Source: an uncultured Oscillospiraceae bacterium (GTDB lineage: Bacteria; Bacillota; Clostridia; Oscillospirales; Oscillospiraceae). Taken from it: a stretch of DNA of 43,162 nt. Location: the NCBI GenBank assembly GCA_964605075.1, contig CAZSAX010000001.1, positions 1-43,162 on the forward strand. The letters are read 5' to 3'. Both the position numbers and the translations under genes were made by a program. The notes beneath the pieces were generated by a model. It was not told the origin of the DNA. It searched no databases and saw only the letters and a program-made list of their open reading frames with translations. Within the stretch, counting starts at the first letter, position 1; every line of letters starts with the position of its first letter. Shown here one piece after another: positions 3,501 through 28,856 of this stretch.

Positions 3501-6470
3501 AGTGTTGACACTTATGGTGAAACCGGCAATCGCTATGTCAATGACTCCATTGATATCACTTTCCAGGTGACGGAGACAAACTTTGATGAGACTCGGTTTG
3601 CCTTTGATGGCCTTCCTGAATCTGGGTTTACCATTGGCGAGTGGAGTAGCACTGGTAATGTCCACGAAATCACCGTGACGCTGACGGCGGATCAAAACGA
3701 TGGTGTATACAATGACATCAAATTGGCTGGCACTGATATGGCCGATAATGACGGTTCTGCACCTGCCGAGCCCATCATTCTGGATCAGACACCTCCCACA
3801 GTGGGGGAGATTACCTATGAGTCGGGAATGCAAAAGCTGCCTCAGTGGCTGTTAGAGCTTTACTACCATGTTTTTGGCAAGACAGAGGGCGAAGATGATA
3901 TCGTCAAGGCTACGATTGAAGTGACAGACGCAACATCGCCCATCGATTTGAACGACGCATACGAACTGAAAATTGAAAACCTGCCCAGCAACGTGAAGAT
4001 CGTTGATACTACGGGTGAAGACAGTGTGGGATACTCGGCGGAAATCACATTCCAGGCGTCTGCTCAATTTATGAAGCAGTTTACGATTACGGCATATGAC
4101 CGTGCCGGGAACTTCGATACTTTGGAAGCCCACAAACAAGATGGCAACACAAACCTTCTGCTGGATACTGTTGCCCCTGTTGTTAGCGAGTGGCATCTGA
4201 CCCGCGGTGATACGGCCATTGATTATGTGGCGTCTCAGGTTCATAGCCAGAATTTGGTGCTTCACTTCACCGTTGAGGATATTATCCAGGATGAAGTCTT
4301 CTCCGGTATAAGTAAAGTGACATACTATGTCGACGATGAGTATGCGGACGGAGACAAGACAGAAGGAACTCTCTATGTGAAGGATGTATCGGATAATAGT
4401 TCGAGTCAGGCGGATTATCACCAGAGTCTTGATTCTGATGGTGGTATGCAGATTGAGATCCCCGCTTCCATGCACAGCAATTTGGTCTATGTTTACATTA
4501 ATGCCGTGGACAATGCGGGCAATGTAATGGTGGAAAAGAAAATTGGTCCCTTCCGTATGGATGCCGTGGCGCCTGTGGTCAGTGTGAGCTATGACAATAA
4601 CAGCGCCGAGAATTCTACCTATTTTGATGCGACCCGTACTGCGACGATCAGCCTACAGGACATTTCCTTTGACGGTACTGGCGCCAATATTACCACAGAA
4701 GGCTCTATCGGCTCCTGGAGTGGTGTAGACACAGACGGAGATGGCTACAAGGACGATTGGACTTGTACAGTTTACTATGGCCCCGATGATGACTACACTC
4801 TCTCCATGAGCGCCTGGGATACTGCGTCTCCCAACGCGAATACCACGGCAGACAGCGCCGTTACCTATACTGGCACGGCGACGCAGGAGTTCACCGTTGA
4901 CCGCACCGCGCCCACCTTTGAGATCACCATGGGCAATGCGGATGTGGATGTCAGCAGCGGCGGTTACAGCAACCAGAATGTGACTGTGACCCTCACTGTG
5001 GATGAGCACAACTTCGACGAGAGTGCTGCTACGGCTGGCCTTTCCGTTATCTACGAAGACGAAGACATCAGCCAGGCCATCCGCAACAGCCTGGTTTGGA
5101 GTTCCAACGGTGATGTTCGTACAGCGACCTTTACCCTGACGGATGACGGTGAGTACAAGATCAATCTCAGCTTCCTTGACCTGGCCGGCAACAGTACTGC
5201 CGCCGCGGAAGACATCGTGGTTCATGTGGACCAAACCAATGCTGAGGTCTATGTGACCGGCGTGGCTGACAAGTCCGCCAACGCCCAGGATGAGATCATC
5301 CCCGTTGTGACCATCTGGGATAAGTACTACAGCCTGGAAGGCGTGGTCATTACCCTCATTAATGGCGAAGGCAAGGATGTAACCGAGCAGTATTTGGACA
5401 TGGAGACCGGCCTTTCCGATATCGCTTATGACGAAGAGCGGGATCTGTACTACCAGACCTTTACTTTCAAGAATCTTGATGAGGATCATGTGTATCACCT
5501 GGAGGTTCGCCATACCGACCTGGCCGGCAACGTCAATACCGTTATGACGGTCCTCAATGGCAAGGGCGAGGAAGAAGTCCTTGACCTGGAAGAAAGCGTG
5601 ATGCGCTTCTCCGTCAACCGCAACGGTTCTACCTACTCCGCCAGCGAGGAAACGCTGGCGATCCTGGGCCAGTATGTCCAGTCTGCCAAGAATGTCCGCA
5701 TTCTGGAGATTAACGTGGACGAGCTGGATCCTGAAAGCATTTACATCACTTTGACCCATGACAATGTCACCCGTGACCTTGTTTATGGCGAGGATTACAC
5801 CTATCAGACTCCTCCCGAGCAGAACGATGCCAGCTGGAATGTTTATGAGTACGTTCTGGAGGACTCCCTGTTTGAGGAAGACGGCGTTTATACCATTACC
5901 ATCTACTCCGTAGATGCCGCAGGCAATGTGGCTCAGAACAACACCGCAGAAAAGGACTTTGAGATCACCTTCGTGGTCGACAAGACGTCTCCTATCTTCG
6001 TGGCTCTGAATCTGGAAGCCGGTGAGATCTACAACGAGGAACAGCATGAAGTGACCATCAACTGCAGCGATAACATCGCTTTGGATACAGTTTATGTCTA
6101 TCGTCTGGACAGTACCGCTGAAAAGGATGAGGACGGCTACTATATCTGGTTCGATAACAACGGTAATGCCCTTGGCGAAGAGGTTGCGCTGACAGCTGTG
6201 GAAGGAAGCAACGGGGACTACACTTTCGTGATCTACGAAGGCGATAGTGCTGCGACATCTAAACAGAGTGTGCTGGTGGTCTGCACCGATAAGGCGGGCA
6301 ATCAGAATATGGAGCAGGAAATCCTTGATTTCACCGTTTCCAGTAGCTTCTGGATTCGATTCTATGCCAACAAGCCTCTGTTCTACGGTTCCATCGGCGG
6401 TATCAGTGCCCTGCTGATTGTCGCGGCAGTTGTGTTTCTGCGCAAGAAGAAAGAGGACGAAGAAACCTAA
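534..6470 (+). CDS. Giant cell-surface protein (1978 aa): signal/anchor helix, about 7 InlB-B-repeat-like beta domains, a long series of Ig-like domains, C-terminal TM anchor
   Basis: ATG 534 follows GAGAGGAGA. The N-terminal hydrophobic helix is ILAWVCVVVMLVMMMPL. Residues about 90-560 repeat a roughly 75-aa unit (YTVTV..NG.V....A.GE.V.I.A.P..GY.L..I.V......V.....FTMP..DV.I.A.F). After that come many units starting D.T.P.V/APVV, typical of bacterial Ig-like folds. The protein ends with LFYGSIGGISALLIVAAVVFL plus RKKKEDEET. There is no LPXTG motif. Confidence 0.85.
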   Translation: MKHYGFGSRILAWVCVVVMLVMMMPLSGFTAVEEEIVEESPVFEAPVVLAALDGEGESGDQSGGDQSGDQSGGDQTDPDSVYYTVAVAEGIANGTVVPSVGSAAEGETVSITAPPEEGYKLSEITVTDANGDPVAVTDMAFTMPAADVAISAVFVKLYTVTVSSDTNGSISAKTQAVAGESVSITVEAKAGYKLDTLSAVDAERNDVHITDNAFTMPASNVTVTATFKTKDHAINTEITGSGTIVVVSHADANESISFEVLPATGYELSGSVLVNGVPVDGNSFTMPEQATTIKAEFVQINYTIGRDIDYDYGSVTVADSAHYGDKVSFTLAGADGRSLVANSLKVTSGTDSISVIKGDDGAYSFDMPAGNVVIEAEFAYTITTENIDNGAINCQESFANPGDTVDFTVLADPADLYELVEGSVKVTYAGGEVEVAETDGVYSFKMPTGDVTITAEFKPIEFTVTLVLDSIYVSSIVREGDTTNKDIKDELGYTQSVSDQRKNRRGKLIGATYTCTFTATCEDALVVTFEKMTPEAWGTWIEWPDALYVGAVEVGGYEKAALKTTWTVEKADVTANITVTSDPVETKVEVVLAPTNMSAVDTAETNVAVEYGDSYEVLFEADAGYTLPDTIVITDVEGTVIQPVETDDAGNETVNYTWTDHLGVKKLVFNEVTETITVTAKAALNTDNYVLDKEQPTGDDNWYKKPSTGTDAVVIRAINGMTISLTGEEGTFADTITGIEDGDYTGDNALTIYTTDGVDTVSQTQILKIDTKVPVITVSGIESGDYTNSNIVLTVYVDEINFAGQAPSVSVNDKTFTDYTFEAAPAENTWTLTISADDVDHTTDGVYTITVDATDLAGNAAEQVKVENVTLDTTEPVVEVIKYSVDTYGETGNRYVNDSIDITFQVTETNFDETRFAFDGLPESGFTIGEWSSTGNVHEITVTLTADQNDGVYNDIKLAGTDMAGNDGSAPAELIVLDQEAPVVEAIKYSVDTYGETGNRYVNDSIDITFQVTETNFDETRFAFDGLPESGFTIGEWSSTGNVHEITVTLTADQNDGVYNDIKLAGTDMADNDGSAPAEPIILDQTPPTVGEITYESGMQKLPQWLLELYYHVFGKTEGEDDIVKATIEVTDATSPIDLNDAYELKIENLPSNVKIVDTTGEDSVGYSAEITFQASAQFMKQFTITAYDRAGNFDTLEAHKQDGNTNLLLDTVAPVVSEWHLTRGDTAIDYVASQVHSQNLVLHFTVEDIIQDEVFSGISKVTYYVDDEYADGDKTEGTLYVKDVSDNSSSQADYHQSLDSDGGMQIEIPASMHSNLVYVYINAVDNAGNVMVEKKIGPFRMDAVAPVVSVSYDNNSAENSTYFDATRTATISLQDISFDGTGANITTEGSIGSWSGVDTDGDGYKDDWTCTVYYGPDDDYTLSMSAWDTASPNANTTADSAVTYTGTATQEFTVDRTAPTFEITMGNADVDVSSGGYSNQNVTVTLTVDEHNFDESAATAGLSVIYEDEDISQAIRNSLVWSSNGDVRTATFTLTDDGEYKINLSFLDLAGNSTAAAEDIVVHVDQTNAEVYVTGVADKSANAQDEIIPVVTIWDKYYSLEGVVITLINGEGKDVTEQYLDMETGLSDIAYDEERDLYYQTFTFKNLDEDHVYHLEVRHTDLAGNVNTVMTVLNGKGEEEVLDLEESVMRFSVNRNGSTYSASEETLAILGQYVQSAKNVRILEINVDELDPESIYITLTHDNVTRDLVYGEDYTYQTPPEQNDASWNVYEYVLEDSLFEEDGVYTITIYSVDAAGNVAQNNTAEKDFEITFVVDKTSPIFVALNLEAGEIYNEEQHEVTINCSDNIALDTVYVYRLDSTAEKDEDGYYIWFDNNGNALGEEVALTAVEGSNGDYTFVIYEGDSAATSKQSVLVVCTDKAGNQNMEQEILDFTVSSSFWIRFYANKPLFYGSIGGISALLIVAAVVFLRKKKEDEET
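705..758 (+). repeat. Short coding low-complexity repeat (SGDQ / SGGDQ)x4
   Basis: Translates to SGDQSGGDQSGDQSGGDQ just after the signal helix of the giant protein. Confidence 0.8.
3159..3794 (+). repeat. Near-identical 318-bp (106-aa) tandem duplication, two copies (3159-3476 and 3477-3794), inside the giant surface-protein gene
   Basis: The block PVVE(V/A)IKYSVDTYGETGNRYVNDSIDITFQVTETNFDETRFAFDGLPESGFTIGEWSSTGNVHEITVTLTADQNDGVYNDIKLAGTDMA(G/D)NDGSAPAE occurs twice. I saw only a handful of nucleotide differences (for example gta/gca, ggt/gat, ctc/ccc, gtt/att, gac/gat). Confidence 0.95.
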
Positions 6471-6544: not shown

Positions 6545-8173
6545 ATGAAACGAATTCTCTCAATGATTATCTGTCTGGCGGTGCTACTCTCGGTGCAGGC
6601 TTTTGCCGCCTCGCTGACAAGTGTTGAAATCAACCAGACAGTCCAGGATGGCGAAGATCTGTATGTGTTCTTCCATGCTGACGATGAAAATGACGAGCAA
6701 ATCAGCACTCTTGGCGAAGATGCAGTTAAGCTCGACCTTGGTGGGCAGAGTTTGACTACCGAGGTCCAGCATGCCGGCTATGTTGGCGTTGGCTATGTTT
6801 TCGCAGTAGATGTGTCCAGTTCCTTGAGTGAGGCACAGTTTGCCAGTGTTCAGGAAGCTCTTAAGAACTGGGTGGAGCGCATGGGTTCCGAAGATATGGC
6901 GGCTATTGTCACTTTTGGCGAATCGGTTACGGTTGTTACGGATTTTACGGATAACAAAAATACGCTCAGTGCCGTGATTAACGGACTGAGTGCTACGGAA
7001 GCTGGAACCGCGCTGTATAGCGGTATGATGAAAGCCATCGATATTGCCAATCGCCGCAGCGAAGATCTTCCGTTGCAGCGAGCAGTTGTCATCCTTTCGG
7101 ATGGCAAGAACGACAGCTCCGATGCGGCTGGATTATCTGAAGTCGAGTCCAAGGCCATTGACGCCGGCATCTCCTTGTATGTTGCCGGTGTAAAGAGCAG
7201 CGATAACAGTGAGCAACTGGCAAAGCTTGGCGAACTGGCCAGAACAACCGGAGGTAAAATCGTTACTGCGGATAAAGACTCTCTAGCGGATACTCTGGAC
7301 AGTCTGAGCCAGTACATTGGCAGCGGCTTTATGGCCACGGCAAAGGTTCCTGCTGAACTGGCAGATGGCAGCGAGAAGGGCCTCATTCTTACAGTCACCC
7401 ATGGTGGTATTACCGTGGATGACAGCTATGATCTGCGTGTAAAGTCTCTGGGAGAACAGACGTTGGAATCTGCGGAAGCGGAAGATGCGGTTGAAACAAT
7501 TACTGCTGAGGAGACGGTTGACGTAGTTGCAGAGGAAGTTTCTGAAGATGTGATCGAGACTTCGACGGAAGAAAGTGTGGATGCGGACGCAACGCTCGAA
7601 GGGGTGGTAAACGAAGCCGTTGGAGTAGCGACTGCGTTTAACACGATTTATATCTACATAGGCGTGGGTGTTCTTCTTGTTGGTGGTCTGGCGGCCTTTC
7701 TTATCATCAGTACGAAAAAAAGACGTGACAAACAGGCAAAGAAAAAAGCCGAACTCAGCCAAGGCTATGGCGGTGGGTATGGGAATTACTCCGGCGGTAC
7801 CATGCCGTTAGACGCTTCCGATATGACCGGGACCATGCGTCTTGACGATTATGGTGTAGGCGGCGGACAGCTCGTTCTGATGGATGTTGTCCAGGGCCGT
7901 TCCTATTCGGTGCCCATGAAAGCGAAAATTTCTATCGGTCGTCGGGAAGGAAGCAATGACATTGTTATTGCAGATGGAACGGTTTCCGGTAAGCACTGCG
8001 AGATCGTCCAGGAAAATGGTCGTTTCTATGTGCGCGATGTGGGTTCATCTCATGGCACCTATGTTGTCACGAATGGTCTTCGCTATCAGGCGGACGGCAT
8101 TTCCGGATGGGAAATCCATGTCGGCGATGAGATCGACATTGGAAAGACCAGACTGGAAGTGTCTAGCTTGTGA
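6545..8173 (+). CDS. Single-pass membrane protein: extracellular VWA domain, TM helix, intracellular FHA domain
   Basis: The start follows RBS GGAGAG. Signal peptide MKRILSMIICLAVLLSVQAFA. VWA/MIDAS-like DVSSSLS and VILSDGKND. An acidic linker, then TM helix IYIYIGVGVLLVGGLAAFLII followed by KKRRDKQAKKK. A GYGGGYGNYSGG spacer, then a C-terminal FHA domain (ISIGRREGSNDIVI..VSGKHCEI..FYVRDVGSSHGTYV). Confidence 0.85.
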   Translation: MKRILSMIICLAVLLSVQAFAASLTSVEINQTVQDGEDLYVFFHADDENDEQISTLGEDAVKLDLGGQSLTTEVQHAGYVGVGYVFAVDVSSSLSEAQFASVQEALKNWVERMGSEDMAAIVTFGESVTVVTDFTDNKNTLSAVINGLSATEAGTALYSGMMKAIDIANRRSEDLPLQRAVVILSDGKNDSSDAAGLSEVESKAIDAGISLYVAGVKSSDNSEQLAKLGELARTTGGKIVTADKDSLADTLDSLSQYIGSGFMATAKVPAELADGSEKGLILTVTHGGITVDDSYDLRVKSLGEQTLESAEAEDAVETITAEETVDVVAEEVSEDVIETSTEESVDADATLEGVVNEAVGVATAFNTIYIYIGVGVLLVGGLAAFLIISTKKRRDKQAKKKAELSQGYGGGYGNYSGGTMPLDASDMTGTMRLDDYGVGGGQLVLMDVVQGRSYSVPMKAKISIGRREGSNDIVIADGTVSGKHCEIVQENGRFYVRDVGSSHGTYVVTNGLRYQADGISGWEIHVGDEIDIGKTRLEVSSL

Positions 8174-8217
8174 AAGGCTGACTAAACAAACTATTTGTTT
8201 AAACAAGGGTCATCATT

Positions 8218-8367
8218 ATGAATGTTATATCTTTAAAAGAAGGAATCCAGCAGAAAAAACAGCAAGCAGTAGGCTTCCGAGGAACGGGCTGGCTGGCAGT
8301 GGTGCTGGCTGCTTTGCTCATGGGTTACGGCTTTGTAACGGCAAGACAACAAACGGAAAAGTCTTAA
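8218..8367 (+). CDS. Possible 49-aa single-TM small protein (below the ORF-track size cut-off)
   Basis: Translates to MNVISLKEGIQQKKQQAVGFRGTGWLAVVLAALLMGYGFVTARQQTEKS, with one clear hydrophobic helix. It sits in the gap after the VWA-FHA gene. The RBS is weak (AAGGG about 10 nt upstream). Confidence 0.3.
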   Translation: MNVISLKEGIQQKKQQAVGFRGTGWLAVVLAALLMGYGFVTARQQTEKS

Positions 8368-8879
8368 GCCAGTCCGTCAATCAATTCAATAGGATTCATG
8401 TAGACGATGGCGATGAGTGACCAAATGCACAGTATGCCGGTACATAGGAATGCCCATGTGGGATGAAGACCGGACGCTTGCAGAAACAGGACAATATCAT
8501 CGCCATCTACTACTATTCCGGCATTGTATTGAAGGGCGATGCTGAACTCTACAATATAGGCTATTGAAGAAAGCAACAGCATTAATAGAACGACAAAACC
8601 TATATATCCTCGTGCGCGAATAAATGGAAGGCTAGTGATCAATGGGAATATCATGCCGGCAAGGCTGATAATGGCAACTACGGTCGTGTTATCATGAGGA
8701 ATTCCGCTTTCCACATGAGGGATGGGGAGAAAGGAAATACTTCCTATTTTCCCGCCAAGAAGAACCGTTGCCAGAGCGTGCCCGCATTCGTGGACGAGGG
8801 GATATAGAACAAACAGCGTAAAAGCGCTGATGGGAATAAGCAATAAGAATCGAAATAATCGTTTCAAGAAGAAACCCAC
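8364..8879 (-). CDS. Polytopic membrane protein with an HExxH motif (putative zincin peptidase, DUF3267/M50-like)
   Basis: 171 aa with several hydrophobic helices. The first helix carries YPLVHECGHALATVLLGG (H-E-x-x-H). GTG start. It is the only reverse-strand gene inside the T7SS block. Confidence 0.6.
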   Translation of the reverse strand: MGFFLKRLFRFLLLIPISAFTLFVLYPLVHECGHALATVLLGGKIGSISFLPIPHVESGIPHDNTTVVAIISLAGMIFPLITSLPFIRARGYIGFVVLLMLLLSSIAYIVEFSIALQYNAGIVVDGDDIVLFLQASGLHPTWAFLCTGILCIWSLIAIVYMNPIELIDGLA

Positions 8880-8952
8880 CTTTCCTGCTGGCTAAATTAT
8901 ACCACAGATAGCCGGATATACTCAAGAAAACCCAACAGGAGACAGTTTGAAC

Positions 8953-9876
8953 ATGGAACATACTATATCATCAATGATTATAAAAGAAGGCATGACAGGG
9001 AGGAATGTCACATTTCTTCTTGCCGGACACGAAGCCTATTCTCCCACAAGTCACAAGATGATGCAGGGTATGCTCGGTGCCGGGCTCCTCTCATGTTCTG
9101 TTTATAAATACAACGGCAGACCTAAAATTATGTATTTTACAGGAAGTAAAAAAGCGCTGTCTGCGTTGGGACTATTAGAGGGTCAGCGGGTTTTAACAAT
9201 TGCCAAAAGTCTCGTGAATGTGGCGGAGCAACTTTATTCAGCGGATTTTCTGAACCTTGAGAACGTAGTAATAAGTGCAGAGCGTGTCTTTGTGGACGTG
9301 GAGTCGGAAGCATGTTACTTCATGTTCCTGCCTTTAAATAACGGAGGTTTGGGACTGGGAAGAGATCGCTTTGAGGCTCAAACAATGAACCTTCTCAGAA
9401 GCTTTGTTATGCGCTATTCGGCAGATGGTAATCCAAAGCTGCAGGAGTTGATTGGGTTCTTGTCCGGTGGAGTGGCCAGCATTCGTCAGGTTAAGCAGTT
9501 GCTTTCATCTGTGGAAAGGCAGGCAACAACCACCTACGTAAAGCTGGGAGACTCGGGTGCTCTTACGGGAAGCCACGGGCTTCATCTTGTAGGTCATGGT
9601 ACACCGGTAGCTGTTGATATCGCAATTACCAAGCCGGAATTTATATTCGGGAAAAGTGTAAACGGTGTCGATGGTACGATCTCGTTTAATAATGCAATCA
9701 GTCGTGTTCACTGTAAAGTAACTCAAAGCGGTGGAAAGACCTATCTTGCCGATTTGGGCAGTTCTAACGGAACCTATGTGAACGGTAAGAAACTGGCCGA
9801 TGGTCAGCTCGTGCAGATTCGGCCAGGAGATCGAATTCGGCTGGCAAACAGCGATTTTGAACTGCGGGAGGGATAA
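8953..9876 (+). CDS. Soluble FHA-domain protein with an uncharacterised roughly 200-aa N-terminal domain
   Basis: AGGAGA at 8937-8942, then ATG 8953 (an alternative TTG lies at 8947). C-terminal FHA domain: FIFGKSVNGVDGTISFNNAISRVHCKVTQSGGKTYLADLGSSNGTYVNGKKL..GDRIRLANSDFELR. No TM helix. The N-domain resembles the DUF6382-type region found on clostridial FHA proteins; that call is from memory and not verified. Confidence 0.75.
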   Translation: MEHTISSMIIKEGMTGRNVTFLLAGHEAYSPTSHKMMQGMLGAGLLSCSVYKYNGRPKIMYFTGSKKALSALGLLEGQRVLTIAKSLVNVAEQLYSADFLNLENVVISAERVFVDVESEACYFMFLPLNNGGLGLGRDRFEAQTMNLLRSFVMRYSADGNPKLQELIGFLSGGVASIRQVKQLLSSVERQATTTYVKLGDSGALTGSHGLHLVGHGTPVAVDIAITKPEFIFGKSVNGVDGTISFNNAISRVHCKVTQSGGKTYLADLGSSNGTYVNGKKLADGQLVQIRPGDRIRLANSDFELREG

Positions 9877-9878
9877 TC

Positions 9879-10907
9879 ATGGCAAAACCTTTGTTTGTTC
9901 TGGCAGACACAAATCCCGAATACATATCCCCCCTGGAGGCAAAACTGCTGGAAACATTCCGAGACAGCATTGATTTGGAAGTAATTGATGACCCTGGCTA
10001 CATCGACGAGTTTGCAGCGACGGCCCGTCGTATCGATGTTCTGATTGTGGCGGATAGGCTGTATAATGCGTTCCTTCGTCAAAACGATATTGGTGTTGTG
10101 TATAAGCTCACCGAGGATGCATCCGAAGAAAACCTCCAAGGTTCCGCAGTCCGCGTTGTATATAAATATGCCCATATTCAAAAAGTTTTCGGCGAGATTG
10201 AATACGGTGCGCGACAGTTTGTTCAAACGACCCGTGTGCATGCGCAGAAGACGAGGATTGTTTTGGTCTACTCTGCGGCCGGTGGGATCGGCAAAACCAC
10301 GATTGCTTTAGGTCTCAGTGCCAACTTGGCAAACAACCATAAGCGGGTTCTCTATTTGGATGCAGAGAATATCCAGGATTTTGGTTATTACCTCCAAGAC
10401 AAAAGTTCTCTGGCATCTGCGGCCAATGGCGTTCTCGGTTCTCCTGGCAGTGATTTATATAGTGGGCTAAAGCCCTATATAAAGAACGAAGGGTTTGATT
10501 ACCTCCCGCCCTTGCGCATGGCGGCGTCTGCCATGGGAATTGATTGTTCGGTGTATGGGCGAGTGGCCAAGGAGTTTCAGAAGCATGTGGATTATGACTA
10601 CATCATTATGGATACGGACTCAGTATTCGATTCCAACAAGGATGAATTGATGCAACTTGCAGACAAAGTCATTTTGCTTACAGGGGCCAGCGAGTTTGCT
10701 CGATACAAGTCTGCGCTCTTGATGAATAATTTCGCAGCTGCCGACAGCGGAAAGTTTTTGGTGGTATGCAATCATGGATATGACGGCATGAACAGCGACA
10801 GCACAGCAACCACCAGCGATGCTTCTGTTGGCAATATGGCAGGGCCGATTACCTTTGCATCCATGCAGAAGAATCGGGATATGGAGAAACTCTCTTACCT
10901 TATCTAA
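9879..10907 (+). CDS. TadZ/CpaE-like protein: N-terminal receiver-like domain plus MinD/ParA-family P-loop ATPase
   Basis: Starts 3 nt after the previous stop, with RBS GGGAGGGA. Residues 1-110 alternate beta/alpha like a CheY fold (LFVLADTN..IDVLIVADRL). Deviant Walker A VLVYSAAGGIGKTTIALGLSANLA (about 10273-10302). LYLDAE and YDYIIMDTDS resemble the A' and B boxes. Confidence 0.75.
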   Translation: MAKPLFVLADTNPEYISPLEAKLLETFRDSIDLEVIDDPGYIDEFAATARRIDVLIVADRLYNAFLRQNDIGVVYKLTEDASEENLQGSAVRVVYKYAHIQKVFGEIEYGARQFVQTTRVHAQKTRIVLVYSAAGGIGKTTIALGLSANLANNHKRVLYLDAENIQDFGYYLQDKSSLASAANGVLGSPGSDLYSGLKPYIKNEGFDYLPPLRMAASAMGIDCSVYGRVAKEFQKHVDYDYIIMDTDSVFDSNKDELMQLADKVILLTGASEFARYKSALLMNNFAAADSGKFLVVCNHGYDGMNSDSTATTSDASVGNMAGPITFASMQKNRDMEKLSYLI

Positions 10908-10921
10908 AGCGGGGAAACGAA

Positions 10922-11170
10922 ATGGCAGATAAAGCAATTATTATGTTTTGTGCAAATGGGAACCAGCGCGTCGACCTTGAAGTGCCGTTGAACATAACGG
11001 CTATTGAGCTTATCCAGGCACTGAATTCCGCATATTCTTTGGGTGTTTCTCAGGATAACTTGGCGGAAAGCTATCTCAAATGTGAGAATCCTATTGCTTT
11101 GTTGCGCGGGAACAAGACGCTTGAAGAGATGGGGATTCACAACGGAAGCAAAATAAGCTTTGAGAAGTAA
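10922..11170 (+). CDS. esaB: YukD/EsaB-family ubiquitin-like T7SS protein
   Basis: 82 aa. The beta-grasp-like pattern is RVDLEVPLNITAIELIQAL...GNKTLEEMGIHNGSKISFEK. It sits immediately upstream of essC, as in T7SSb loci. Confidence 0.75.
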   Translation: MADKAIIMFCANGNQRVDLEVPLNITAIELIQALNSAYSLGVSQDNLAESYLKCENPIALLRGNKTLEEMGIHNGSKISFEK

Positions 11171-11181
11171 GGAAATGAACC

Positions 11182-14100
11182 ATGGGAAAGAAATATAAGA
11201 TCGTAATATCCAGTGGGAACATCCATCGTGAGGCTGAACTGCCGGATGATGATATTTCAATCCGTGTGGGAACAACCGTGCGCTGCGATATTCGCATTGC
11301 GCTGCTTGCTACCAAGGAACCGGTGGAATTGGTAATGAGCCGACTGGACGGCGCTTGGTCTGTCGAATGCCCGGAGGGCCTATATTTTACCGATGGCGGT
11401 GTTCGCAAGCAGATTCGAAAGCAACTGGATCACGGTGACAAAGTTTTCGTCTTCCTGCAGTCGCAGGCCAAAAGCATTTGCACCATCGACTTTATGCTGG
11501 ACTTTGATAGTCGAGCCAAAAAGTACGACCGGATGATTGACATTCGCAACGTAAACAATCTGGTCATTGGCGGTCATCCTACGGCGGCCATCTATATTGA
11601 AGACCCATTGCTGGAAACCGATTTTATTACCATTGCAAAAAGACAGGGAAAGCTTTATCTTGCCGACTTCAATGCTCGGTATGGAGCCTACATCAATGGT
11701 GTCCGGGTTGATGGAGAGAAGGAACTGACAGATACGGATTTCTTTTCCGTTGTTAGCTACAGCTTCTATTACAAAGATGGCTTCCTTTATACGGATTCGA
11801 AAAACGGAATACGCATTAACGGCCTTCGCTCTTCTTTTGACAGCCTACATTCGGACAATATGGAGTATCCCAAGTTTGTCCGCAATGTGCGCAAGAAAAT
11901 CATTTTGTCAAAAGAGCCGATCGTGATTCTGGATCCCGAACAAAAGCCCCAGAAGCCTAAAAATAACATTTTTATGCAGCTTTTGCCGGCGGTGGGTTCG
12001 TTGATTTTGGTGGTGCTTTTACGTGGAGTGATGGGGGGCGGAGGTAGCTTTGTAATCTTCAGCGCCTGCTCCATGGCATTGGGAATGGTTACTACGGTCA
12101 TTTCCTTTATCACGGGAAACAAAGACTACAAGAAGGAAGTTGAAAAGCGCGAAAAAGATTATGCTGCGTATATTGCCGGAAAGCGGAAGGAAATTGAAGC
12201 AGTCAGGAAAACCGAGGCCCTGCAGTTATCGCAAATATACATTCCGGTTCAGCAACAACTCAAGCGGGTCCGTGAATTTAGCGGAGACCTCTTTGACCGG
12301 CAACGTGAGGATGATGACTTCCTTTGCATCCGTCTAGGCGAAGGCAGGCAGGAGGCTAAGCGGCCGATCAAGATTACTGTAAAAGAGACCATTACCGCAG
12401 CAGATGAACTGGCTAAAATCCCTCAGACCATCGCCCAAAACTACAAATATATCCCTAACGCGCCTGTTTTTATTGATTTAAAAGCAGATAACGCTATCGG
12501 CGTTGTCGGCGATGATGTGCGCCAGCGGGAAATGCTGAAGATCATGACGCTGGATATCAGTGTGCGGCATTATCACAACGACGTGAAGCTGATGTACATC
12601 CTGGGCAATGATGTCCATGAAATACAGTGGCTGCGCTGGCTGCCCCATGTCAGCAATGAGGCGATGGGCGTTCGCAATATCGTTTGCGATGACGAAAGCA
12701 AAAATGCCCTTTTTGAGTTCCTGTATGTTGAACTCACCTCCCGCGAGCAGCAGAAAAGAAACAGTCCCCACTATGTTGTGTTCGTCCTGGATGATCACGG
12801 GATGAAACGGCATCCGATTTCGGAATACATCAGCAAGGCAAAAAGTCTTGGCTTTACTTTCGTTTTCTTTGAGGTGCGGCAGGAACTGTTGCCGCAGGGG
12901 GTGGATGAGGTCGTATCGCTGGAGCGAGGCAGCAACCGAGCAACAGTGGTAACGGTTGCGAATCTGAACAATACCAGAAGCTTTTCCTACAGCGTTATTA
13001 AAAACGAGGATATGGAGAAGGTCGCCCTGACGCTTTCACCTGTATACAGCGAAGAGGTCAGTCTGGAAAATACCCTGACCAAGAGCATAACACTATTTGA
13101 AATGCTGGGAATTCTCTCTCCGGAAGACATTGACCTGAACGGCAACTGGAGCCGTGCGGCGGTACATCACTCGCTTGCGGTGCCCATCGGCGTGAAGGCC
13201 AACAATGAAACCGTGTATCTCGACATCCGCAAGCATGGTCCCCACGGCCTGGTTGCGGGTACGACGGGTGCCGGTAAGAGTGAGCTTCTGCAGAGCTATA
13301 TTATTTCTGCGTCCATCCTATTCCATCCTTATGAAGTGAGTTTTGTTATCATCGACTTCAAAGGCGGCGGCATGGTCAACCAGCTTCGGGAACTGCCTCA
13401 TCTGATCGGCGCTATTACCAATATTGACGGCAGGGAAATTGATCGGTCGCTGAAATCCATCAAGGCAGAATTGATGAAGAGACAGCGGCTGTTTGCTGAG
13501 ATGGAAGTGTCGAAGATCGGCGATTATATCCGCAAGTACAAAAGTGGCGAAGCATCTGTTCCACTGCCGCATCTGGTGATTATTGTGGACGAGTTTGCTG
13601 AGCTGAAAGCGGAGCAGCCGGAGTTTATGAAAGAGCTTATCAGCGCAGCCCGCATTGGTCGAAGCCTTGGTGTACACCTGATCCTGGCCACGCAGAAGCC
13701 GGCCGGCCAGGTGAATGAGCAGATTTGGTCCAACTCAAATTTCAAAATGTGTTTGCGCGTGGCATCGCCCCAGGACTCCAACGAAGTTCTGAAGTCCCCC
13801 TTGGCGGCGGAAATCCGCGAACCGGGCCGGGCCTATCTGCAGGTGGGAAACAACGAAATTTTTGACCTTTTCCAGTCGGCATATAGCGGCGGCCCCTCTA
13901 GTGTGGATGCGGGAGAAAAGCAGAAGACTTTCAGCGTGGCTGAGGTTTCGCTTTTCGGGAAAAGAAGCATCATTTTTCAGAGAAAACCGACGGCCCAAAG
14001 TGAAGGTAACTTCACACAGCTGGAGGCTGTGGTAAATTATGTGGCCGATTTCTGCCAGAAACAAAATATTTCTAAGCTTCCAGATATCTGCCTTCCGTCT

Positions 14101-15705
14101 CTGCCTGCGGTGCTGCCATATAAGGATGAGCAGAAGGTAAACAAAACCGAGACCTTCGTTACAATCGGGTTGTACGACGATCCGGATAACCAGCTTCAGG
14201 CCCCTGTGCGGCTTAATCTTACTAGTGGCAATGTCTTTATCGTTGGCTCGTCTCAGAGTGGCAAGACAAACCTCCTGCAAACCATCATCCGCGGCCTAGT
14301 GGAAAACTATTCGCCGGACGAACTGACACTGTATGTCGTGGACTTCAGCTCCATGATCCTGAAAAACTTCGAACATATGAAGCATGTGGGCGGCGTGGTT
14401 ACCCGTGCAGAAGATGAGGCGCTCAAAAATCTGTTCAAGCTGATGATTGCAGAGATCGCCAGTCGAAAGGATAAATTGCTGAAGGTTGGTGTGAGTTCCT
14501 ATGCGTCCTACCGAGAGGCTGGCTTGATGGACATTCCTCAAATTGTGTTGGCGATCGATAATATGACCGCACTGAAGGAAATGCTTGGGCAGGACGAAGA
14601 GGTTTTGCGGATGTTGTGCCAGGAGGGTACGACTGTTGGTATAAGTGTGGTTGCGGCCAACACACAAACGACAGGTTTCGGTTATAAATACCTTGCCTAT
14701 TTCCCGAGTCGGATTGCATTGTTTTGCAACGACAGTGCTGAATACAGCACTGTGTTTGATTATTGCCGAATGCGTCCCTTGAATACTCCGGGACGCGGGC
14801 TTGTTCAAATCAACAAATCGATTTATGAGGCGCAGGTTTATCTGGCTTTTGAAGGCGAAAAAGAGATTGAGCGAGTGCGAGAGGTTCGAAACTTTGCAGA
14901 GCGCATTAATCAAAAGTATGTGGGCCAGGGGCGTGCGACTAAAATCCCAGTGATCCCTAAGGTGCTTACCGATGATATTATGAACCGGCAGATCGAATCT
15001 CTCGGGTCATATCAAATTGGCCTTGGTTTGGATTACGCAACGGTTGAACCGGTAGTTTTGAATCTTGCGGAATTGGGGCTGCTGGGTATTTCAGGACGAA
15101 AAAGAATGGGGCGGAGCAACTTTATCCGCCATATGCTGGCAGAACTTGAAAGAAACTGTACAGTGGCTCCTGTGTCTGTACATATCGTGGACGGGATGGA
15201 TAAAAAGTTTGCGTCCCTGGAGCGGCTGAGTATCGTTGAAGAGTATACATTGATTCCCGAAACTGTCCTTGAAACGATAGCCCAGTGGGACAGTATCCTA
15301 CAGCAGCGTTATGAGATGCTCCTCTCCGGTGATGCAGACAACATGGAACAGCAGCCTCTGCTACTACTGATTATCCGAAACAACGATGTGGCATCCATCA
15401 TCAGCTCCAACAGCGAGGCACTTGCGAGATACAAGAATTTCCTTGGGAAATACAAAGCGCTGAAAGTGTGTGTGATTTTTGCAGACATGGACAATGTGAG
15501 CATTCCCTTTAATGCGCCGGAGGCGGTTAAACCATTGCGGGAGAGCCATCATTTCCTGTTCTTCGACAATCTGGCTTCGATGAAGCTGTTTGATGCGCCT
15601 ATTGCGGCCATCCGCCAGTTCAAGAAGGACATTGAGCCGGGGGATTGCTATTACACCCGGGAAAATGTGGTACGAAAAATCAAAACCGTGCTGTATGAAC
15701 AGTGA
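11182..15705 (+). CDS. essC: EssC/YukB-type T7SS FtsK/SpoIIIE ATPase (two N-terminal FHA-like domains, 2 TM helices, three P-loop domains)
   Basis: 1507 aa. FHA-like LVIGGHPTAAIYIEDPLLETDFITIAKRQGKLYLADFNARYGAYINGVRV. TM region IFMQLLPAVGSLILVVLL..FVIFSACSMALGMVTTVISFI. D1 Walker A GTTGAGKSELLQS (about 13258) with IIVDEFAEL. D2 GSSQSGKTNLLQT (about 14245) with LAIDN. D3 has a degenerate loop, GISGRKRMGRSN (about 15085). Confidence 0.95.
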   Translation: MGKKYKIVISSGNIHREAELPDDDISIRVGTTVRCDIRIALLATKEPVELVMSRLDGAWSVECPEGLYFTDGGVRKQIRKQLDHGDKVFVFLQSQAKSICTIDFMLDFDSRAKKYDRMIDIRNVNNLVIGGHPTAAIYIEDPLLETDFITIAKRQGKLYLADFNARYGAYINGVRVDGEKELTDTDFFSVVSYSFYYKDGFLYTDSKNGIRINGLRSSFDSLHSDNMEYPKFVRNVRKKIILSKEPIVILDPEQKPQKPKNNIFMQLLPAVGSLILVVLLRGVMGGGGSFVIFSACSMALGMVTTVISFITGNKDYKKEVEKREKDYAAYIAGKRKEIEAVRKTEALQLSQIYIPVQQQLKRVREFSGDLFDRQREDDDFLCIRLGEGRQEAKRPIKITVKETITAADELAKIPQTIAQNYKYIPNAPVFIDLKADNAIGVVGDDVRQREMLKIMTLDISVRHYHNDVKLMYILGNDVHEIQWLRWLPHVSNEAMGVRNIVCDDESKNALFEFLYVELTSREQQKRNSPHYVVFVLDDHGMKRHPISEYISKAKSLGFTFVFFEVRQELLPQGVDEVVSLERGSNRATVVTVANLNNTRSFSYSVIKNEDMEKVALTLSPVYSEEVSLENTLTKSITLFEMLGILSPEDIDLNGNWSRAAVHHSLAVPIGVKANNETVYLDIRKHGPHGLVAGTTGAGKSELLQSYIISASILFHPYEVSFVIIDFKGGGMVNQLRELPHLIGAITNIDGREIDRSLKSIKAELMKRQRLFAEMEVSKIGDYIRKYKSGEASVPLPHLVIIVDEFAELKAEQPEFMKELISAARIGRSLGVHLILATQKPAGQVNEQIWSNSNFKMCLRVASPQDSNEVLKSPLAAEIREPGRAYLQVGNNEIFDLFQSAYSGGPSSVDAGEKQKTFSVAEVSLFGKRSIIFQRKPTAQSEGNFTQLEAVVNYVADFCQKQNISKLPDICLPSLPAVLPYKDEQKVNKTETFVTIGLYDDPDNQLQAPVRLNLTSGNVFIVGSSQSGKTNLLQTIIRGLVENYSPDELTLYVVDFSSMILKNFEHMKHVGGVVTRAEDEALKNLFKLMIAEIASRKDKLLKVGVSSYASYREAGLMDIPQIVLAIDNMTALKEMLGQDEEVLRMLCQEGTTVGISVVAANTQTTGFGYKYLAYFPSRIALFCNDSAEYSTVFDYCRMRPLNTPGRGLVQINKSIYEAQVYLAFEGEKEIERVREVRNFAERINQKYVGQGRATKIPVIPKVLTDDIMNRQIESLGSYQIGLGLDYATVEPVVLNLAELGLLGISGRKRMGRSNFIRHMLAELERNCTVAPVSVHIVDGMDKKFASLERLSIVEEYTLIPETVLETIAQWDSILQQRYEMLLSGDADNMEQQPLLLLIIRNNDVASIISSNSEALARYKNFLGKYKALKVCVIFADMDNVSIPFNAPEAVKPLRESHHFLFFDNLASMKLFDAPIAAIRQFKKDIEPGDCYYTRENVVRKIKTVLYEQ

Positions 15706-15767
15706 CCAACAGCGAACCGTTTTGGTAAGCTGAAAAAGTCAAATATATTTTTTGGAGGAATTCAACA

Positions 15768-16064
15768 ATGGCTGGACAAATTCTTATTGTCTACGAGGGA
15801 ATGCAGAATGCTGCGAACTATTACACTCAGTGTGCGGAACAGTTTCGTGAGCTCTGCACTGCGATCATCAATCGCAATGAACAGCTGGTGAGCAGCGAGT
15901 GGAATGGCGATGCTGCGCTTGCTTTCCAGGAAAGATTCTCTAGCGATCACGCGGACAAAATTGAGAAAGTGGCTGTGGCTCTCGATGAGATTTCTACCTT
16001 TATTACCACCTACATTGCGAATCAGCAGAGCGCTGACAGCGATCAGGCGGGCGCCATTCGCTAA
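15768..16064 (+). CDS. esxA: WXG100-family (EsxA-like) secreted protein
   Basis: 98 aa with RBS GGAGG. A central W-x-G motif (SSEWNGDAALAFQERF) sits between two predicted helices. A strong hairpin follows. Confidence 0.9.
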   Translation: MAGQILIVYEGMQNAANYYTQCAEQFRELCTAIINRNEQLVSSEWNGDAALAFQERFSSDHADKIEKVAVALDEISTFITTYIANQQSADSDQAGAIR

Positions 16065-16106: not shown

Positions 16107-16220
16107 AGATATGTATTTAGAAGACAAAAGCTTACGTTTTTTCTGATTGATTTCATAAGCACCTTGTTTTTTTAGGCGTTTATGAAATCCATCAAGATTT
16201 TACAGCACAAGGGGATACAT

Positions 16221-16658: not shown

Positions 16659-16669
16659 GGTAGTCCTGT

Positions 16670-16960: not shown

Positions 16961-16969
16961 GGAAAAAGA

Positions 16970-20041: not shown

Positions 20042-20042
20042 C

Positions 20043-20324: not shown

Positions 20325-20341
20325 ACAAAGAAGGTGAGTAG

Positions 20342-28848: not shown

Positions 28849-28856
28849 ATACATCC

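What the first reader, a model, noticed from the sequence alone, without database searches (positions are those of the whole stretch)
6545..16064. T7SS core with EssC, YukD and WXG100 but no EssA/EssB/EsaA; FHA, VWA and ParA-type proteins in their place
Seen in sequence:
- Tightly packed, co-directional genes encode a VWA-TM-FHA protein, a soluble FHA protein and a receiver-like plus MinD/ParA ATPase.
- They are followed by a YukD/EsaB ubiquitin-like protein and a 1507-aa EssC. EssC has two FHA-like domains, 2 TM helices, P-loops GTTGAGKSE and GSSQSGKTN, and a degenerate third loop.
- The last gene is a WXG100 protein (SEWNGDAA).
- Spacing is operon-like: a 3-nt gap at 9876/9879, 10907 to 10922, and 11170 to 11182.

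Established knowledge: characterised Firmicutes T7SSb machines also need EssA (small single-pass), EssB/YukC (pseudokinase plus TM) and EsaA/YueB (large polytopic).

No ORF in this window has any of those architectures.

Inference: this may be a variant T7SS membrane complex in which FHA, VWA and ParA-type components replace the canonical partners. I cannot search databases, so novelty is unproven.
Basis: partly seen in the sequence, partly recalled or inferred. Interest (0 to 1): 0.85.

Follow-up and report, generated by a model that had tools for sequence, protein, structure and literature searches.

The report
Variant type VII secretion gene cluster
This is a protein-secretion (type VII) gene cluster from an uncultured gut Clostridia bacterium that lacks the textbook partner proteins, but this general design was published in 2024, so only its particular mix of parts is new.

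Summary
Window 6545-16064 encodes a signal-peptide-VWA-TM-FHA protein, a DUF6382+FHA protein (J), a TadZ-like receiver+ParA/MinD ATPase (V), YukD, a 1507-aa EssC and a WXG100 protein. No sequence homologue of EssA, EssB or EsaA was found.

1. T7SS variants without EssA/EssB/EsaA that use FHA, kinase/phosphatase and TadZ-like parts were described by Garrett, Higginson & Palmer 2024 (T7SSc-j).
3. J's DUF6382 domain models as a kinase-like fold. Its best PDB matches are YukC/EssB.
4. VWA-TM-FHA occurs only in a small metagenome-only clade. More distant relatives sit beside Ser/Thr kinase and PP2C genes without any T7SS, so it looks like a signalling adaptor, not a core substitute.

Close relatives carry PP2C and kinase genes upstream. 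The contig ends before that position.

Gene content matches none of T7SSc-j exactly: it is T7SSe/j-like plus TsfV plus VWA-TM-FHA. Verdict: new variant of a known kind, moderate interest.

The parts
3..470 (+). C-terminal 155 aa of a small single-pass membrane protein (TsxH/K-like). It has a TM helix and then a disordered cytoplasmic tail with TxxL(D) motifs (TVWLD, TVNLD). The gene runs off the contig start.
   Evidence: Translation and TM scan. 41% identity to the 159-aa gene between the kinase and the giant protein in L001. TxxL motifs are 3-4x enriched over shuffles in 10 of 10 homologues.
516..6470 (+). 1984-aa surface protein with a signal peptide/N-terminal TM, InlB-B/Ig-like repeats, a C-terminal TM and RKKK. 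The likely ATG is at 534. This is the TsxI-type architecture, the proposed EsaA analogue.
   Evidence: Pfam Flg_new_2 x4 and Big_13. TM segments at 16-34 and 1955-1973. The C-terminal ~650-750 aa are conserved upstream of J in 9 of 13 genome loci. TsdI/TseI are described in PMC11217815.
6545..8173 (+). Signal peptide, extracellular VWA with MIDAS motif DxSxS, acidic linker, TM, Gly/Tyr linker with TMPLD/TMRLD, and cytoplasmic FHA (GR...SxxH...HGT). Predicted transmembrane phospho-signalling adaptor.
   Evidence: About 26 full-length homologue clusters, all from metagenomes. Found in T7SS loci of two layouts. More distant relatives lie with kinase/PP2C genes but no T7SS or with an ABC transporter.
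8364..8879 (-). 171-aa polytopic membrane protein with an HExxH motif (weak Peptidase_M50B-like match), on the opposite strand. Role unknown.
   Evidence: 49-51% identical copies lie at the same position in L001-L004, and a 167-aa minus-strand gene sits there in L026. Absent from the 13 genome loci.
8947..9876 (+). J: soluble DUF6382 domain (kinase-like fold, EssB/YukC-like) plus a C-terminal FHA (GK...SRxH...NGT). The likely start is 8953.
   Evidence: Pfam. Alignment. AlphaFold models with pLDDT 85.3 and 91.6. Foldseek top hits are 6z0f YukC/EssB, 9qks_C and 4ano. No TM.
9879..10907 (+). V: TadZ-like atypical receiver domain plus a ParA/MinD-type ATPase. The Walker A is SAAGGIGKTT, without the signature lysine. 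Equivalent to TsfV.
   Evidence: Profile hit to 3FKQ TadZ, E 5.8e-20 over residues 5-321. hhalign to the TadZ-position gene of a Tad operon, probability 97.6%.
10922..11170 (+). B: YukD/EsaB ubiquitin-like protein with no C-terminal GG.
   Evidence: Pfam YukD, 33.5 bits. Conserved in all related loci.
11182..15705 (+). C: EssC ATPase with two degenerate N-terminal FHA domains, 2 TM helices and three P-loop domains.
   Evidence: TIGR03928, 1115 bits. Best PDB match is B. subtilis YukB 9qks, E 1.8e-137. The FHA domains lack GR/SxxH/NG.
15768..16064 (+). A: WXG100 protein (WNG).
   Evidence: Pfam WXG100 and TIGR03930.
16182..22885 (+). Candidate substrate modules. Small helical partners (96 and 99 aa, paralogues) each precede a large protein (788 and 398 aa) that shares an N-terminal ~94 aa. 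The 398-aa protein has a Gly-zipper TM region. A DUF4176 protein and a 330-aa protein follow.
   Evidence: No family or PDB match for the large proteins. The substrate role is inferred.

Best explanation
The region is the core of a Clostridia-type variant type VII secretion system, with components of the kind catalogued as T7SSe/f/j. The motor and conserved accessories are EssC (C), YukD (B) and WXG100 (A).

Four further proteins stand in for EssB, EssA and EsaA:
- J is a soluble protein with an EssB-like pseudokinase fold fused to a phosphothreonine-competent FHA domain.
- V is a TadZ-like atypical-receiver/ParA ATPase, probably a positioning or assembly platform.
- A small single-pass protein (3-470) has a cytoplasmic tail with repeated TxxL(D) motifs.
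- A giant Ig-repeat protein (516-6470) is anchored by a C-terminal TM helix and probably spans the wall.

Proposed mechanism (inferred):
1. A membrane Ser/Thr kinase and a PP2C phosphatase are encoded just upstream in every close relative, but lie off this contig. They write and erase phosphothreonines on the TxxL tails.
2. The FHA domains of J and of VWA-TM-FHA dock on those sites.
3. J's pseudokinase domain then engages EssC's degenerate FHA domains, as EssB does in T7SSb. This licenses assembly and secretion of WXG100 and the downstream toxin-like substrates.

VWA-TM-FHA is an accessory of this clade only. It is an outward-facing MIDAS sensor wired to an inward FHA domain. Together with the kinase and phosphatase it forms a TerY-P-like triad. 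It is not a core structural substitute.
For: Shown:
- Domain identities.
- Gene order PP2C - kinase - single-pass - giant Ig protein - VWA-TM-FHA - (minus-strand gene) - J - V - YukD - EssC - WXG100 in relatives L001-L003. L026 has the same order up to EssC. Together they span 56-66% EssC identity.
- The same order without VWA-TM-FHA in up to 9 of 13 species-representative genomes.
- J's N-terminal domain model (pLDDT 91.6, pTM 0.88) has YukC/EssB as its top PDB hit (6z0f: E 2e-5, TMq 0.59-0.61). 9qks_C and 4ano are also in the top 10.
- V matches TadZ 3FKQ over both domains.
- EssC's FHA domains lack GR/SxxH/NG, whereas the FHA domains of J and VWA-TM-FHA keep them.
- TxxL motifs are enriched in 10 of 10 single-pass tails and occur in the VWA-TM-FHA linker.
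- More distant VWA-TM-FHA relatives sit next to kinase/PP2C genes without any T7SS.

From the literature:
- The EssB pseudokinase binds the EssC FHA domains, and a phospho-regulation idea has been raised for T7SSe/f/j (PMC11217815).
Against: - The kinase and PP2C genes are not on this contig, because the window is the whole contig. Their presence is inferred from relatives.
- The DUF6382-EssB similarity is structural only. No sequence-level signal was found. TM-scores are about 0.6, RMSD is above 6 Angstrom, and ordinary kinases score only about 10-fold worse, so common descent is unproven.
- J has Lys where FHA domains normally have the phosphate-binding Arg. The window's VWA-TM-FHA has His in place of the NG Asn.
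- No interaction, phosphorylation or secretion has been tested.
- J-like and V-like proteins also occur in Tad pilus operons, so their role could be something other than EssC docking.
- The substrates have no recognised LXG or toxin domain.
Confidence: 0.65

Rival explanations
1. It is an ordinary T7SSb whose essA, essB and esaA genes lie elsewhere in the genome. The FHA, VWA and ParA genes are merely neighbours.
For: EssC scores above the T7SSb EssC equivalog cutoff. Its FHA domains are degenerate, like those of T7SSb. Only 43 kb of the genome is visible.
Against: No YukC, EssA or EsaA family appears among the called genes within +/-10 kb in the related loci that were looked up. J-V-YukD-EssC are separated by 2-14 nt and are syntenic in more than 20 loci down to 40% EssC identity. 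Garrett et al. found no T7SSb partners in genomes carrying T7SSc. That statement is made only for T7SSc.
Confidence: 0.07
2. VWA-TM-FHA, J and V form a separate kinase/phosphatase signalling or surface-adhesin/Tad-like module. It would serve the giant Ig protein rather than the T7SS, and its position next to essC would be coincidental or purely regulatory at the transcriptional level.
For: J-like (2-TM) and TadZ-like proteins occur in Tad/Flp operons. VWA-TM-FHA relatives occur with kinase/PP2C genes or with an ABC transporter and no T7SS. VWA-TM-FHA is separated from J by an opposite-strand gene.
Against: J and V are immediately upstream of yukD-essC in every locus recovered with V as the query, and no Tad genes are present there. 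VWA-TM-FHA also abuts yukD-essC directly in a second layout that lacks J and V, which argues for a functional tie to EssC.
Confidence: 0.15
3. VWA-TM-FHA is a true structural core subunit that replaces EssB/EsaA. This is the first reader's reading: a membrane anchor with an extracellular domain and a cytoplasmic EssC-binding domain.
For: Its topology (extracellular domain, one TM, cytoplasmic protein-binding domain) resembles an inverted EssB. In the L005/L025 layout it is the only membrane protein directly next to yukD-essC, and J and V are missing there.
Against: It is absent from all 13 species-representative genomes with the same J-V-B-C core. The wider family (172 representatives at E<=1e-30) includes members next to kinase/PP2C genes with no T7SS.
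Confidence: 0.12

Closest known systems
T7SSf (Garrett, Higginson & Palmer 2024, Microlife 5:uqae013; Clostridium spp.)
   Same: WXG100, YukD and an EssC with N-terminal FHA domains whose phosphothreonine motifs are poorly or partly conserved. A DUF6382+FHA protein (TsfJ). A TadZ-like receiver+ATPase (TsfV). No EssA, EssB or EsaA.
   Different: TsfJ has two TM helices, whereas J here is soluble. T7SSf has no kinase, no giant Ig protein and no single-pass protein, whereas this lineage has all three. VWA-TM-FHA and the M50B-like gene are not part of T7SSf. EssC clade membership could not be tested.
T7SSe / T7SSj (same paper)
   Same: The component set of kinase (D), PP2C (F), giant signal-peptide-Ig-TM protein (I), DUF6382+FHA (J; soluble in T7SSe), a single-pass protein with a disordered tail (H/K), YukD, EssC and WXG100.
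   Different: Neither subtype has a TadZ-like V. Their EssC FHA domains keep the phosphothreonine-binding residues, whereas here they are lost. T7SSe has two WXG100 genes. TseK is zinc-ribbon-like. Neither has VWA-TM-FHA.
Canonical T7SSb (S. aureus Ess, B. subtilis Yuk)
   Same: EssC (TIGR03928 equivalog score; YukB is the best PDB hit), YukD/EsaB, a single WXG100 and degenerate EssC FHA domains. J carries a pseudokinase-fold domain most similar to YukC/EssB.
   Different: No sequence homologues of EssA, EssB or EsaA. The pseudokinase-like protein has no TM or extracellular domain and carries an FHA domain. The wall-spanning candidate is a bitopic Ig-repeat protein, not the polytopic EsaA.
TerY-P triad and vWA-STPK-FHA-PP2C operons (Anantharaman et al. 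2012 as cited in PMC10542128; D. radiodurans DRA0331-0334, bioRxiv 10.64898/2026.01.23.701218)
   Same: A VWA protein, a Ser/Thr kinase and a PP2C phosphatase (plus FHA) act as a portable phosphorylation switch attached to other systems. Relatives of the window protein sit beside kinase and PP2C genes.
   Different: Here VWA and FHA are fused in one membrane-spanning protein, and the VWA is predicted to be extracellular. The module is attached to a T7SS.
T6SS threonine-phosphorylation pathway (PpkA/PppA/Fha1; Agrobacterium TssL-Fha, cited in PMC11217815). That PpkA has a periplasmic VWA domain is from my own knowledge.
   Same: The logic is the same: a membrane kinase, a PP2C and an FHA adaptor gate assembly of a secretion machine, and a VWA domain faces outward.
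   Different: The machine is unrelated. In PpkA the VWA is fused to the kinase, not to the FHA domain.
TadZ/CpaE of Tad (Flp) pili (E. rectale TadZ, PDB 3FKQ)
   Same: V aligns over both the atypical receiver and the ATPase domain (E 5.8e-20). Clostridial Tad operons also encode a DUF6382-2TM-FHA protein.
   Different: There are no Tad genes in this window or in the 13 related genome loci. V has an intact GKT Walker A.

Membership tests
T7SSb (Ess/Yuk) | EssC: N-terminal FHA domains, 2 TM helices, FtsK/SpoIIIE P-loop domains | tested here: met
   TIGR03928 1115 bits, cutoff 778. FtsK_SpoIIIE E 5.9e-53 and FHA E 1.8e-4. 2 TM helices.
T7SSb (Ess/Yuk) | WXG100 EsxA and YukD/EsaB | tested here: met
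   PF06013 32.1 bits and PF08817 33.5 bits, both above their cutoffs.
T7SSb (Ess/Yuk) | EssB/YukC: cytoplasmic pseudokinase, one TM, extracellular domain | tested here: not met
   No YukC or T7_EssB HMM hit. J's N-terminal domain has an EssB-like fold, but it has no TM or extracellular part.
T7SSb (Ess/Yuk) | EssA and EsaA/YueB | tested here: not met
   No HMM hit in any ORF tested. Only architectural analogues are present (3-470 and 516-6470).
T7SSf | TsfV: TadZ-like atypical receiver plus ATPase, encoded among the T7SS genes | tested here: met
   Profile hit to 3FKQ, E 5.8e-20, residues 5-321. The gene lies between J and yukD.
T7SSf | TsfJ: DUF6382, 2 TM helices, FHA | tested here: not met
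   DUF6382 and FHA are present, but there is no hydrophobic segment. Homologues of 284-326 aa also lack one.
T7SSf | PPM phosphatase present, no associated kinase, no TsxI | tested here: not met
   A TsxI-like gene is present. Close relatives carry both PP2C and kinase upstream. The window itself is cut before that position.
T7SSf / T7SSj / T7SSe | EssC falls in the TsfC, TsjC or TseC clade | not tested
   Reference sequences could not be retrieved.
T7SSe / T7SSj | Kinase TsxD and phosphatase TsxF in the cluster | not testable with these tools
   The contig ends inside the single-pass gene. Both are present upstream in L001, L002, L026, L010, L015 and L021. In L003, L012 and L020 the kinase is seen and the PP2C is cut off by the edge of the fetched stretch or lies beyond it.
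T7SSe / T7SSj | TsxI (signal peptide, Ig repeats, C-terminal TM) and a single-pass TsxH/K | tested here: met
   This is an architecture-level match only. TseK is zinc-ribbon-like, and the window protein is not.
T7SSe / T7SSj | Phosphothreonine-binding residues conserved in the TsxC FHA domains, and no TadZ-like component | tested here: not met
   GR/SxxH/NG are absent from both EssC FHA domains across 18 homologues. V is present.
TerY-P-like triad (VWA + PP2C + Ser/Thr kinase) | A VWA protein with an intact MIDAS motif encoded with a PP2C and a kinase | tested here: inconclusive
   MIDAS D89/S91/S93 are conserved. PP2C and kinase lie in the same cluster in relatives but are not visible on this contig. 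The VWA is predicted to be extracellular, unlike TerY.
TadZ/CpaE | Atypical receiver plus MinD/ParA ATPase, encoded in a tad locus | tested here: inconclusive
   The fold and sequence criterion is met. The tad-locus context is not met here.

The most novel reading that the evidence does not exclude
This is a T7SS subtype not among the published c-j set, confined so far to uncultured gut and rumen Clostridia.
- A portable 'pseudokinase-FHA + TadZ' platform, shared with Tad pili, replaces EssB/EssA.
- Assembly is gated by phosphothreonine docking onto a TxxL-repeat scaffold.
- In one metagenome-only clade, an outward-facing VWA/MIDAS sensor fused to a cytoplasmic FHA domain couples an extracellular cue (cell contact or metal) to firing of the secretion machine.
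Probability: 0.3. Interest if true: 0.7.

Novelty: new variant of a known kind. Interest (0 to 1): 0.5.

Why it matters
T7SSb-type machines deliver antibacterial toxins, and how they assemble and are switched on is still unclear. This lineage offers three things.
- **A testable switch.** It suggests a simple, testable circuit of kinase, PP2C, a TxxL scaffold and FHA adaptors.
- **A link to EssB.** It ties the uncharacterised DUF6382 domain to the EssB pseudokinase fold. That suggests a pseudokinase-EssC(FHA) contact may be a shared feature of otherwise different T7SS variants.
- **Wider diversity.** It extends the published catalogue, which was built from RefSeq, into uncultured gut Clostridia. 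These bacteria mix parts of three described subtypes and share two parts with Tad pili.

It does not overturn current understanding.

Tried and rejected
- Full-length J fold search: the hit list was dominated by FHA domains and said nothing about DUF6382. I re-modelled residues 1-196 alone.
- Sequence-level tests of a DUF6382-EssB link: the PDB profile search gave only spurious interferon hits. Pfam at E<=10 on 17 domains gave only DUF6382.
A direct comparison or EssC phylogeny against TsfC/TsjC was therefore not possible.
- Promoter and terminator scan of 6300-16700: counts were at shuffle background, so it says nothing about operon structure.
- PDB, Pfam and NCBIfam searches of the presumed substrates (788, 398 and 330 aa): nothing found. 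Their toxin nature remains an inference.
- VWA-TM-FHA as a rare, T7SS-specific family: rejected after the exhaustive search found 172 representatives at E<=1e-30. More distant relatives also lie in non-T7SS contexts.
- A chimeric assembly as the cause of the GC jump at ~28 kb: this cannot be excluded, but no T7SS conclusion depends on it.
Full report
**1. The observation**

- 6545-8173 encodes a 542-aa protein with VWA (residues 85-231, E 2.9e-18) and FHA (462-533, E 4.2e-16). A hydrophobicity scan finds an N-terminal signal-like segment and one TM helix at about 372-390, followed by KKRRDKQAKKK. The VWA domain is therefore predicted to face outward and the FHA domain inward.
- 8947-9876 encodes an FHA protein with no TM helix.
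- 9879-10907 has a ParA/MinD-type P-loop.
- 10922-11170 is YukD. 11182-15705 is EssC (TIGR03928, 1115 bits against a cutoff of 778). 15768-16064 is WXG100.
- The quoted P-loops and the WNG motif are in the sequence.

Four points need correcting.
- A conserved minus-strand membrane gene (8364-8879) sits in the 773-nt gap between the VWA-TM-FHA gene and J.
- The J/V gap is 2 nt, not 3.
- Only the second EssC FHA domain has a Pfam hit.
- The "soluble FHA protein" carries an N-terminal DUF6382 domain (37.5 bits).

**2.

Immediately upstream, ORF 516-6470 encodes a 1984-aa protein. It has a signal peptide or N-terminal TM, InlB-B/Ig-like repeats (Flg_new_2 x4, Big_13) and a C-terminal TM helix followed by RKKK.

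Frame 3 of bases 3-470 is the last 155 aa of a protein that runs off the contig start. It has one TM helix and then a disordered tail.

These are the architectures that Garrett, Higginson & Palmer (Microlife 2024, PMC11217815) call TsxI and TsxH/K. TsxI is a giant signal-peptide-Ig-TM protein proposed as an EsaA analogue. TsxH/K is a single-pass protein with an unstructured cytoplasmic stretch. The statement that no ORF in the window has comparable architectures is therefore not correct.

**3. Prior art**

That paper defines eight T7SS variants, T7SSc-j, that lack EssA, EssB and EsaA.
- T7SSf (Clostridium) has WXG100, YukD, an FHA-bearing EssC, a PPM phosphatase, TsfJ (DUF6382, 2 TM, FHA) and TsfV (TadZ-like atypical receiver plus ATPase).
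- T7SSe and T7SSj have a kinase (D), a phosphatase (F), I, J and K.

The central idea of the finding is therefore published. Literature searches found no later paper describing a VWA-TM-FHA component or the particular combination seen here.

**4. Synteny**

The VWA-TM-FHA protein has about 26 full-length homologue clusters (38-92% identity). All come from metagenome sources and none from NCBI or UniRef. Six neighbourhoods were looked up.
- *Layout 1* (L001/L002, L003 and L026; 45-66% identity). The order is PP2C, Ser/Thr kinase (569-588 aa), a 150-159-aa single-pass protein, a giant Ig protein (1805-2579 aa), VWA-TM-FHA, a minus-strand M50B-like gene, J, V, YukD, EssC and WXG100. In L026 no WXG100 family is called after EssC. 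L003's fetched stretch starts inside the kinase gene, so no PP2C is visible there.
- *Layout 2* (L005/L006 and L025). The order in L005 is kinase, a 1297-aa protein, PP2C, VWA-TM-FHA, YukD and a 1401-aa EssC that lacks the first FHA domain. There is no J or V.
- *One further relative* (38% identity) lies next to an FHA-FHA-ABC transporter.

The window equals the whole contig. The kinase and PP2C predicted upstream therefore cannot be seen.

I then scanned one genome per GTDB species with a profile of V. This found 13 loci. All but one are labelled as Clostridia and most are metagenome-assembled genomes: Roseburia, Acetatifactor, Lachnospiraceae, Oscillospiraceae, Ruminococcaceae, Anaerovoracaceae and Eubacteriales. 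One bin is labelled Gastranaerophilales, and one is an isolate, Lachnospiraceae KH1P17.

tblastn with the window proteins and with the L001 kinase and PP2C gave these results.
- J-V-YukD-EssC is present in all 13.
- The giant Ig protein lies directly upstream of J in 9.
- A kinase and/or PP2C is found wherever the flank reaches far enough.
- VWA-TM-FHA and the M50B-like gene are found in none.

The conserved machine is therefore (F-D-K-I)-J-V-B-C-A. VWA-TM-FHA is a clade-specific insertion between I and J.

**5. J has an EssB-like fold**

AlphaFold2 on an alignment of 21 homologues gave a confident full-length model (pLDDT 85.3). Its PDB matches were all FHA domains.

I re-modelled residues 1-196 alone (pLDDT 91.6, pTM 0.88) and searched the PDB again. 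The ranked hits were:
- rank 1-2: B. subtilis YukC/EssB 6z0f (E 2e-5, TMq 0.59-0.61);
- rank 3: the N-domain of TraF from the pIP501 type IV system;
- rank 4: chain C of the B. subtilis T7b core unit 9qks;
- rank 10: the G. thermodenitrificans EssB cytoplasmic fragment 4ano;
- the other hits were ordinary and RIO protein kinases, with E-values about 10-fold weaker than the YukC hit or worse.

No canonical catalytic motif is conserved in the family. There is no sequence-level link to YukC.

I conclude that DUF6382 is a minimal kinase-like (pseudokinase) fold whose nearest solved relatives are EssB/YukC. Common descent is plausible but unproven. The paper's supplement lists "protein kinase domain" as a FoldSeek hit for TsfJ, but the main text never connects DUF6382 to EssB.

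**6. V is a TadZ homologue, and J and V are shared with Tad pili**

The V profile matches E. rectale TadZ (3FKQ) over residues 5-321, E 5.8e-20. The Walker A is SAxGGxGKT, without the signature lysine of deviant Walker A ATPases. The receiver's acceptor position is mostly Glu, as expected of an atypical receiver.

DUF6382-2TM-FHA proteins with the TsfJ architecture (P0064, P0067) turned out to be the last genes of Tad/Flp pilus operons. In L022 the gene at the TadZ position matches the V profile (hhalign probability 97.6%, E 3e-12). P0064 matches the DUF6382 profile (97.2%, E 3e-11). The J+V pair therefore looks like a portable module used by two different envelope machines in Clostridia.

**7. 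The phospho-switch**

EssC's two FHA domains lack the GR, SxxH and NG residues in all 18 homologues aligned, as in T7SSb.
- J keeps GK...SRxH...NGT, invariant or nearly so.
- The VWA-TM-FHA family keeps GR...SxxH...(N/H)GT and an intact MIDAS motif DxSxS.

The cytoplasmic tails of all 10 single-pass homologues examined carry repeated TxxL(D/N/E) motifs. Examples are TVWLD and TVNLD in the window and EATTALD repeats in L010. These motifs are 3-4 times more frequent than in composition-preserving shuffles. The VWA-TM-FHA linker carries TMPLD and TMRLD. pTxxL/D is a classical FHA ligand pattern; this last point is from established knowledge.

Together with the kinase and PP2C in relatives, this supports, but does not prove, the following model. 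The kinase phosphorylates the TxxL sites. The FHA domains of J and VWA-TM-FHA dock on them. J's pseudokinase domain then engages EssC's degenerate FHA domains, as EssB does (Tassinari 2022 and Bobrovskyy 2022, as cited in PMC11217815).

**8. What VWA-TM-FHA is**

An exhaustive phmmer search of 1.84 billion representative proteins found 172 at E<=1e-30. Most are 480-600 aa and match in both the VWA and FHA regions. Two more distant members were looked up.
- One lies next to a PP2C gene (L027).
- The other lies between a kinase and a PP2C, with no T7SS in the fetched stretch (L028).

This matches a known kind of module, a VWA + PP2C + Ser/Thr-kinase "TerY-P" switch that attaches to diverse systems (PMC10542128). 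It also resembles the D. radiodurans vWA-STPK-FHA-PP2C operon (bioRxiv 10.64898/2026.01.23.701218).

I therefore read the window protein as a membrane-spanning signalling adaptor recruited to this T7SS, not as a structural replacement for EssB or EsaA. Its direct adjacency to yukD-essC in layout 2 keeps the structural reading alive at low probability.

**9. Downstream genes and context**

Genes 16182-22885 look like substrate modules. Two small paralogous helical proteins (96 and 99 aa, 33% identical) each precede a large protein (788 and 398 aa). The two large proteins share their first ~94 aa (28% identity). The 398-aa protein has a Gly-zipper TM region. A DUF4176 protein and a 330-aa protein follow. 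None has a recognisable LXG or toxin domain.

GC content falls into three blocks.
- The T7SS block has 46-51% GC.
- A restriction-modification fragment at 24-27 kb has 37% GC.
- From 28 kb onward the GC content is 58-64%. This block holds housekeeping genes and five tRNAs.

This suggests horizontal acquisition.

**10. Verdict**

The gene set matches none of T7SSc-j exactly. It is T7SSe/j-like (D, F, I, soluble J, H/K), plus the T7SSf-specific V, plus VWA-TM-FHA and an M50B-like gene. Its EssC FHA domains are degenerate, as in T7SSb.

EssC clade membership could not be tested because reference sequences were unobtainable. I classify it as a new variant of a known kind, of moderate interest.

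Noticed in passing
window 1-23000 vs 24000-27000 vs 28000-43162: GC content steps from 46-51% (T7SS block) to 37% (N6 DNA methylase 24265-26310 plus a type I specificity-subunit fragment 26297-26848) and then to 58-64%. The last block holds housekeeping genes and a five-tRNA cluster at 40526-41001 on the minus strand. The T7SS block looks horizontally acquired. A chimeric assembly cannot be excluded.
   Followed up: partly
L022:1576-11326 and L023:497-5684: DUF6382-2TM-FHA proteins (the TsfJ architecture) are the terminal genes of Clostridial Tad/Flp pilus operons. In L022 the gene at the TadZ position is homologous to the window's V protein. The J+V pair therefore appears to be a module shared between Tad pili and this T7SS class.
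   Followed up: partly
window 8364-8879 (minus strand): A 171-aa polytopic membrane protein with HECGH (HExxH) and a weak M50B-like match. It is conserved at this position on the opposite strand only in loci that also carry VWA-TM-FHA in layout 1. A promoter-like site lies at 8925-8896. Its role is unknown; it could be an intramembrane protease.
   Followed up: partly
window 3-470; L010:2348-2995; L015:3692-4462; L021:3641-4342: The cytoplasmic tails of the single-pass proteins carry tandemly repeated (E/A)TxxL(D/N/E) units, for example EATTALD/EATAVLD x5 in L010 and ETAPLRE x5 in L021. This is consistent with multivalent phosphothreonine docking sites for FHA domains.
   Followed up: partly
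L008:9416-9985; L010:7983-8531; L018:8487-9053: Some related loci carry an extra 189-aa DUF6382-only paralogue (no FHA) directly upstream of J.
   Followed up: no
window 6490-6518: A strong palindromic hairpin (12-bp stem, 8 GC pairs) lies between the stop of the giant Ig-repeat gene (6470) and the start of the VWA-TM-FHA gene (6545). It may be a transcript-processing or attenuation element.
   Followed up: no
window 516-6470 vs L009-L021: Only the membrane-proximal C-terminal ~650-750 aa of the giant Ig-repeat protein is conserved (25-31% identity) across distant loci. The N-terminal, distal part is variable, as expected if the tip recognises targets and the base contacts the machine.
   Followed up: no
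L005:11265-15470; L025:2992-7200: In the layout that lacks J and V, EssC is about 1401 aa and lacks the first ~112 residues (the first FHA domain). This hints that the first FHA domain is the partner of J or V.
   Followed up: no
window 21893-22885 and 16970-19336: The first ~120 aa of the 330-aa protein recur inside the 788-aa protein (residues 148-247) and at the start of downstream genes in L001 and L005. This suggests a shuffled targeting module among the putative substrates. The 330-aa C-terminus has a Cys...His pattern reminiscent of amidases, but no database match.
   Followed up: no
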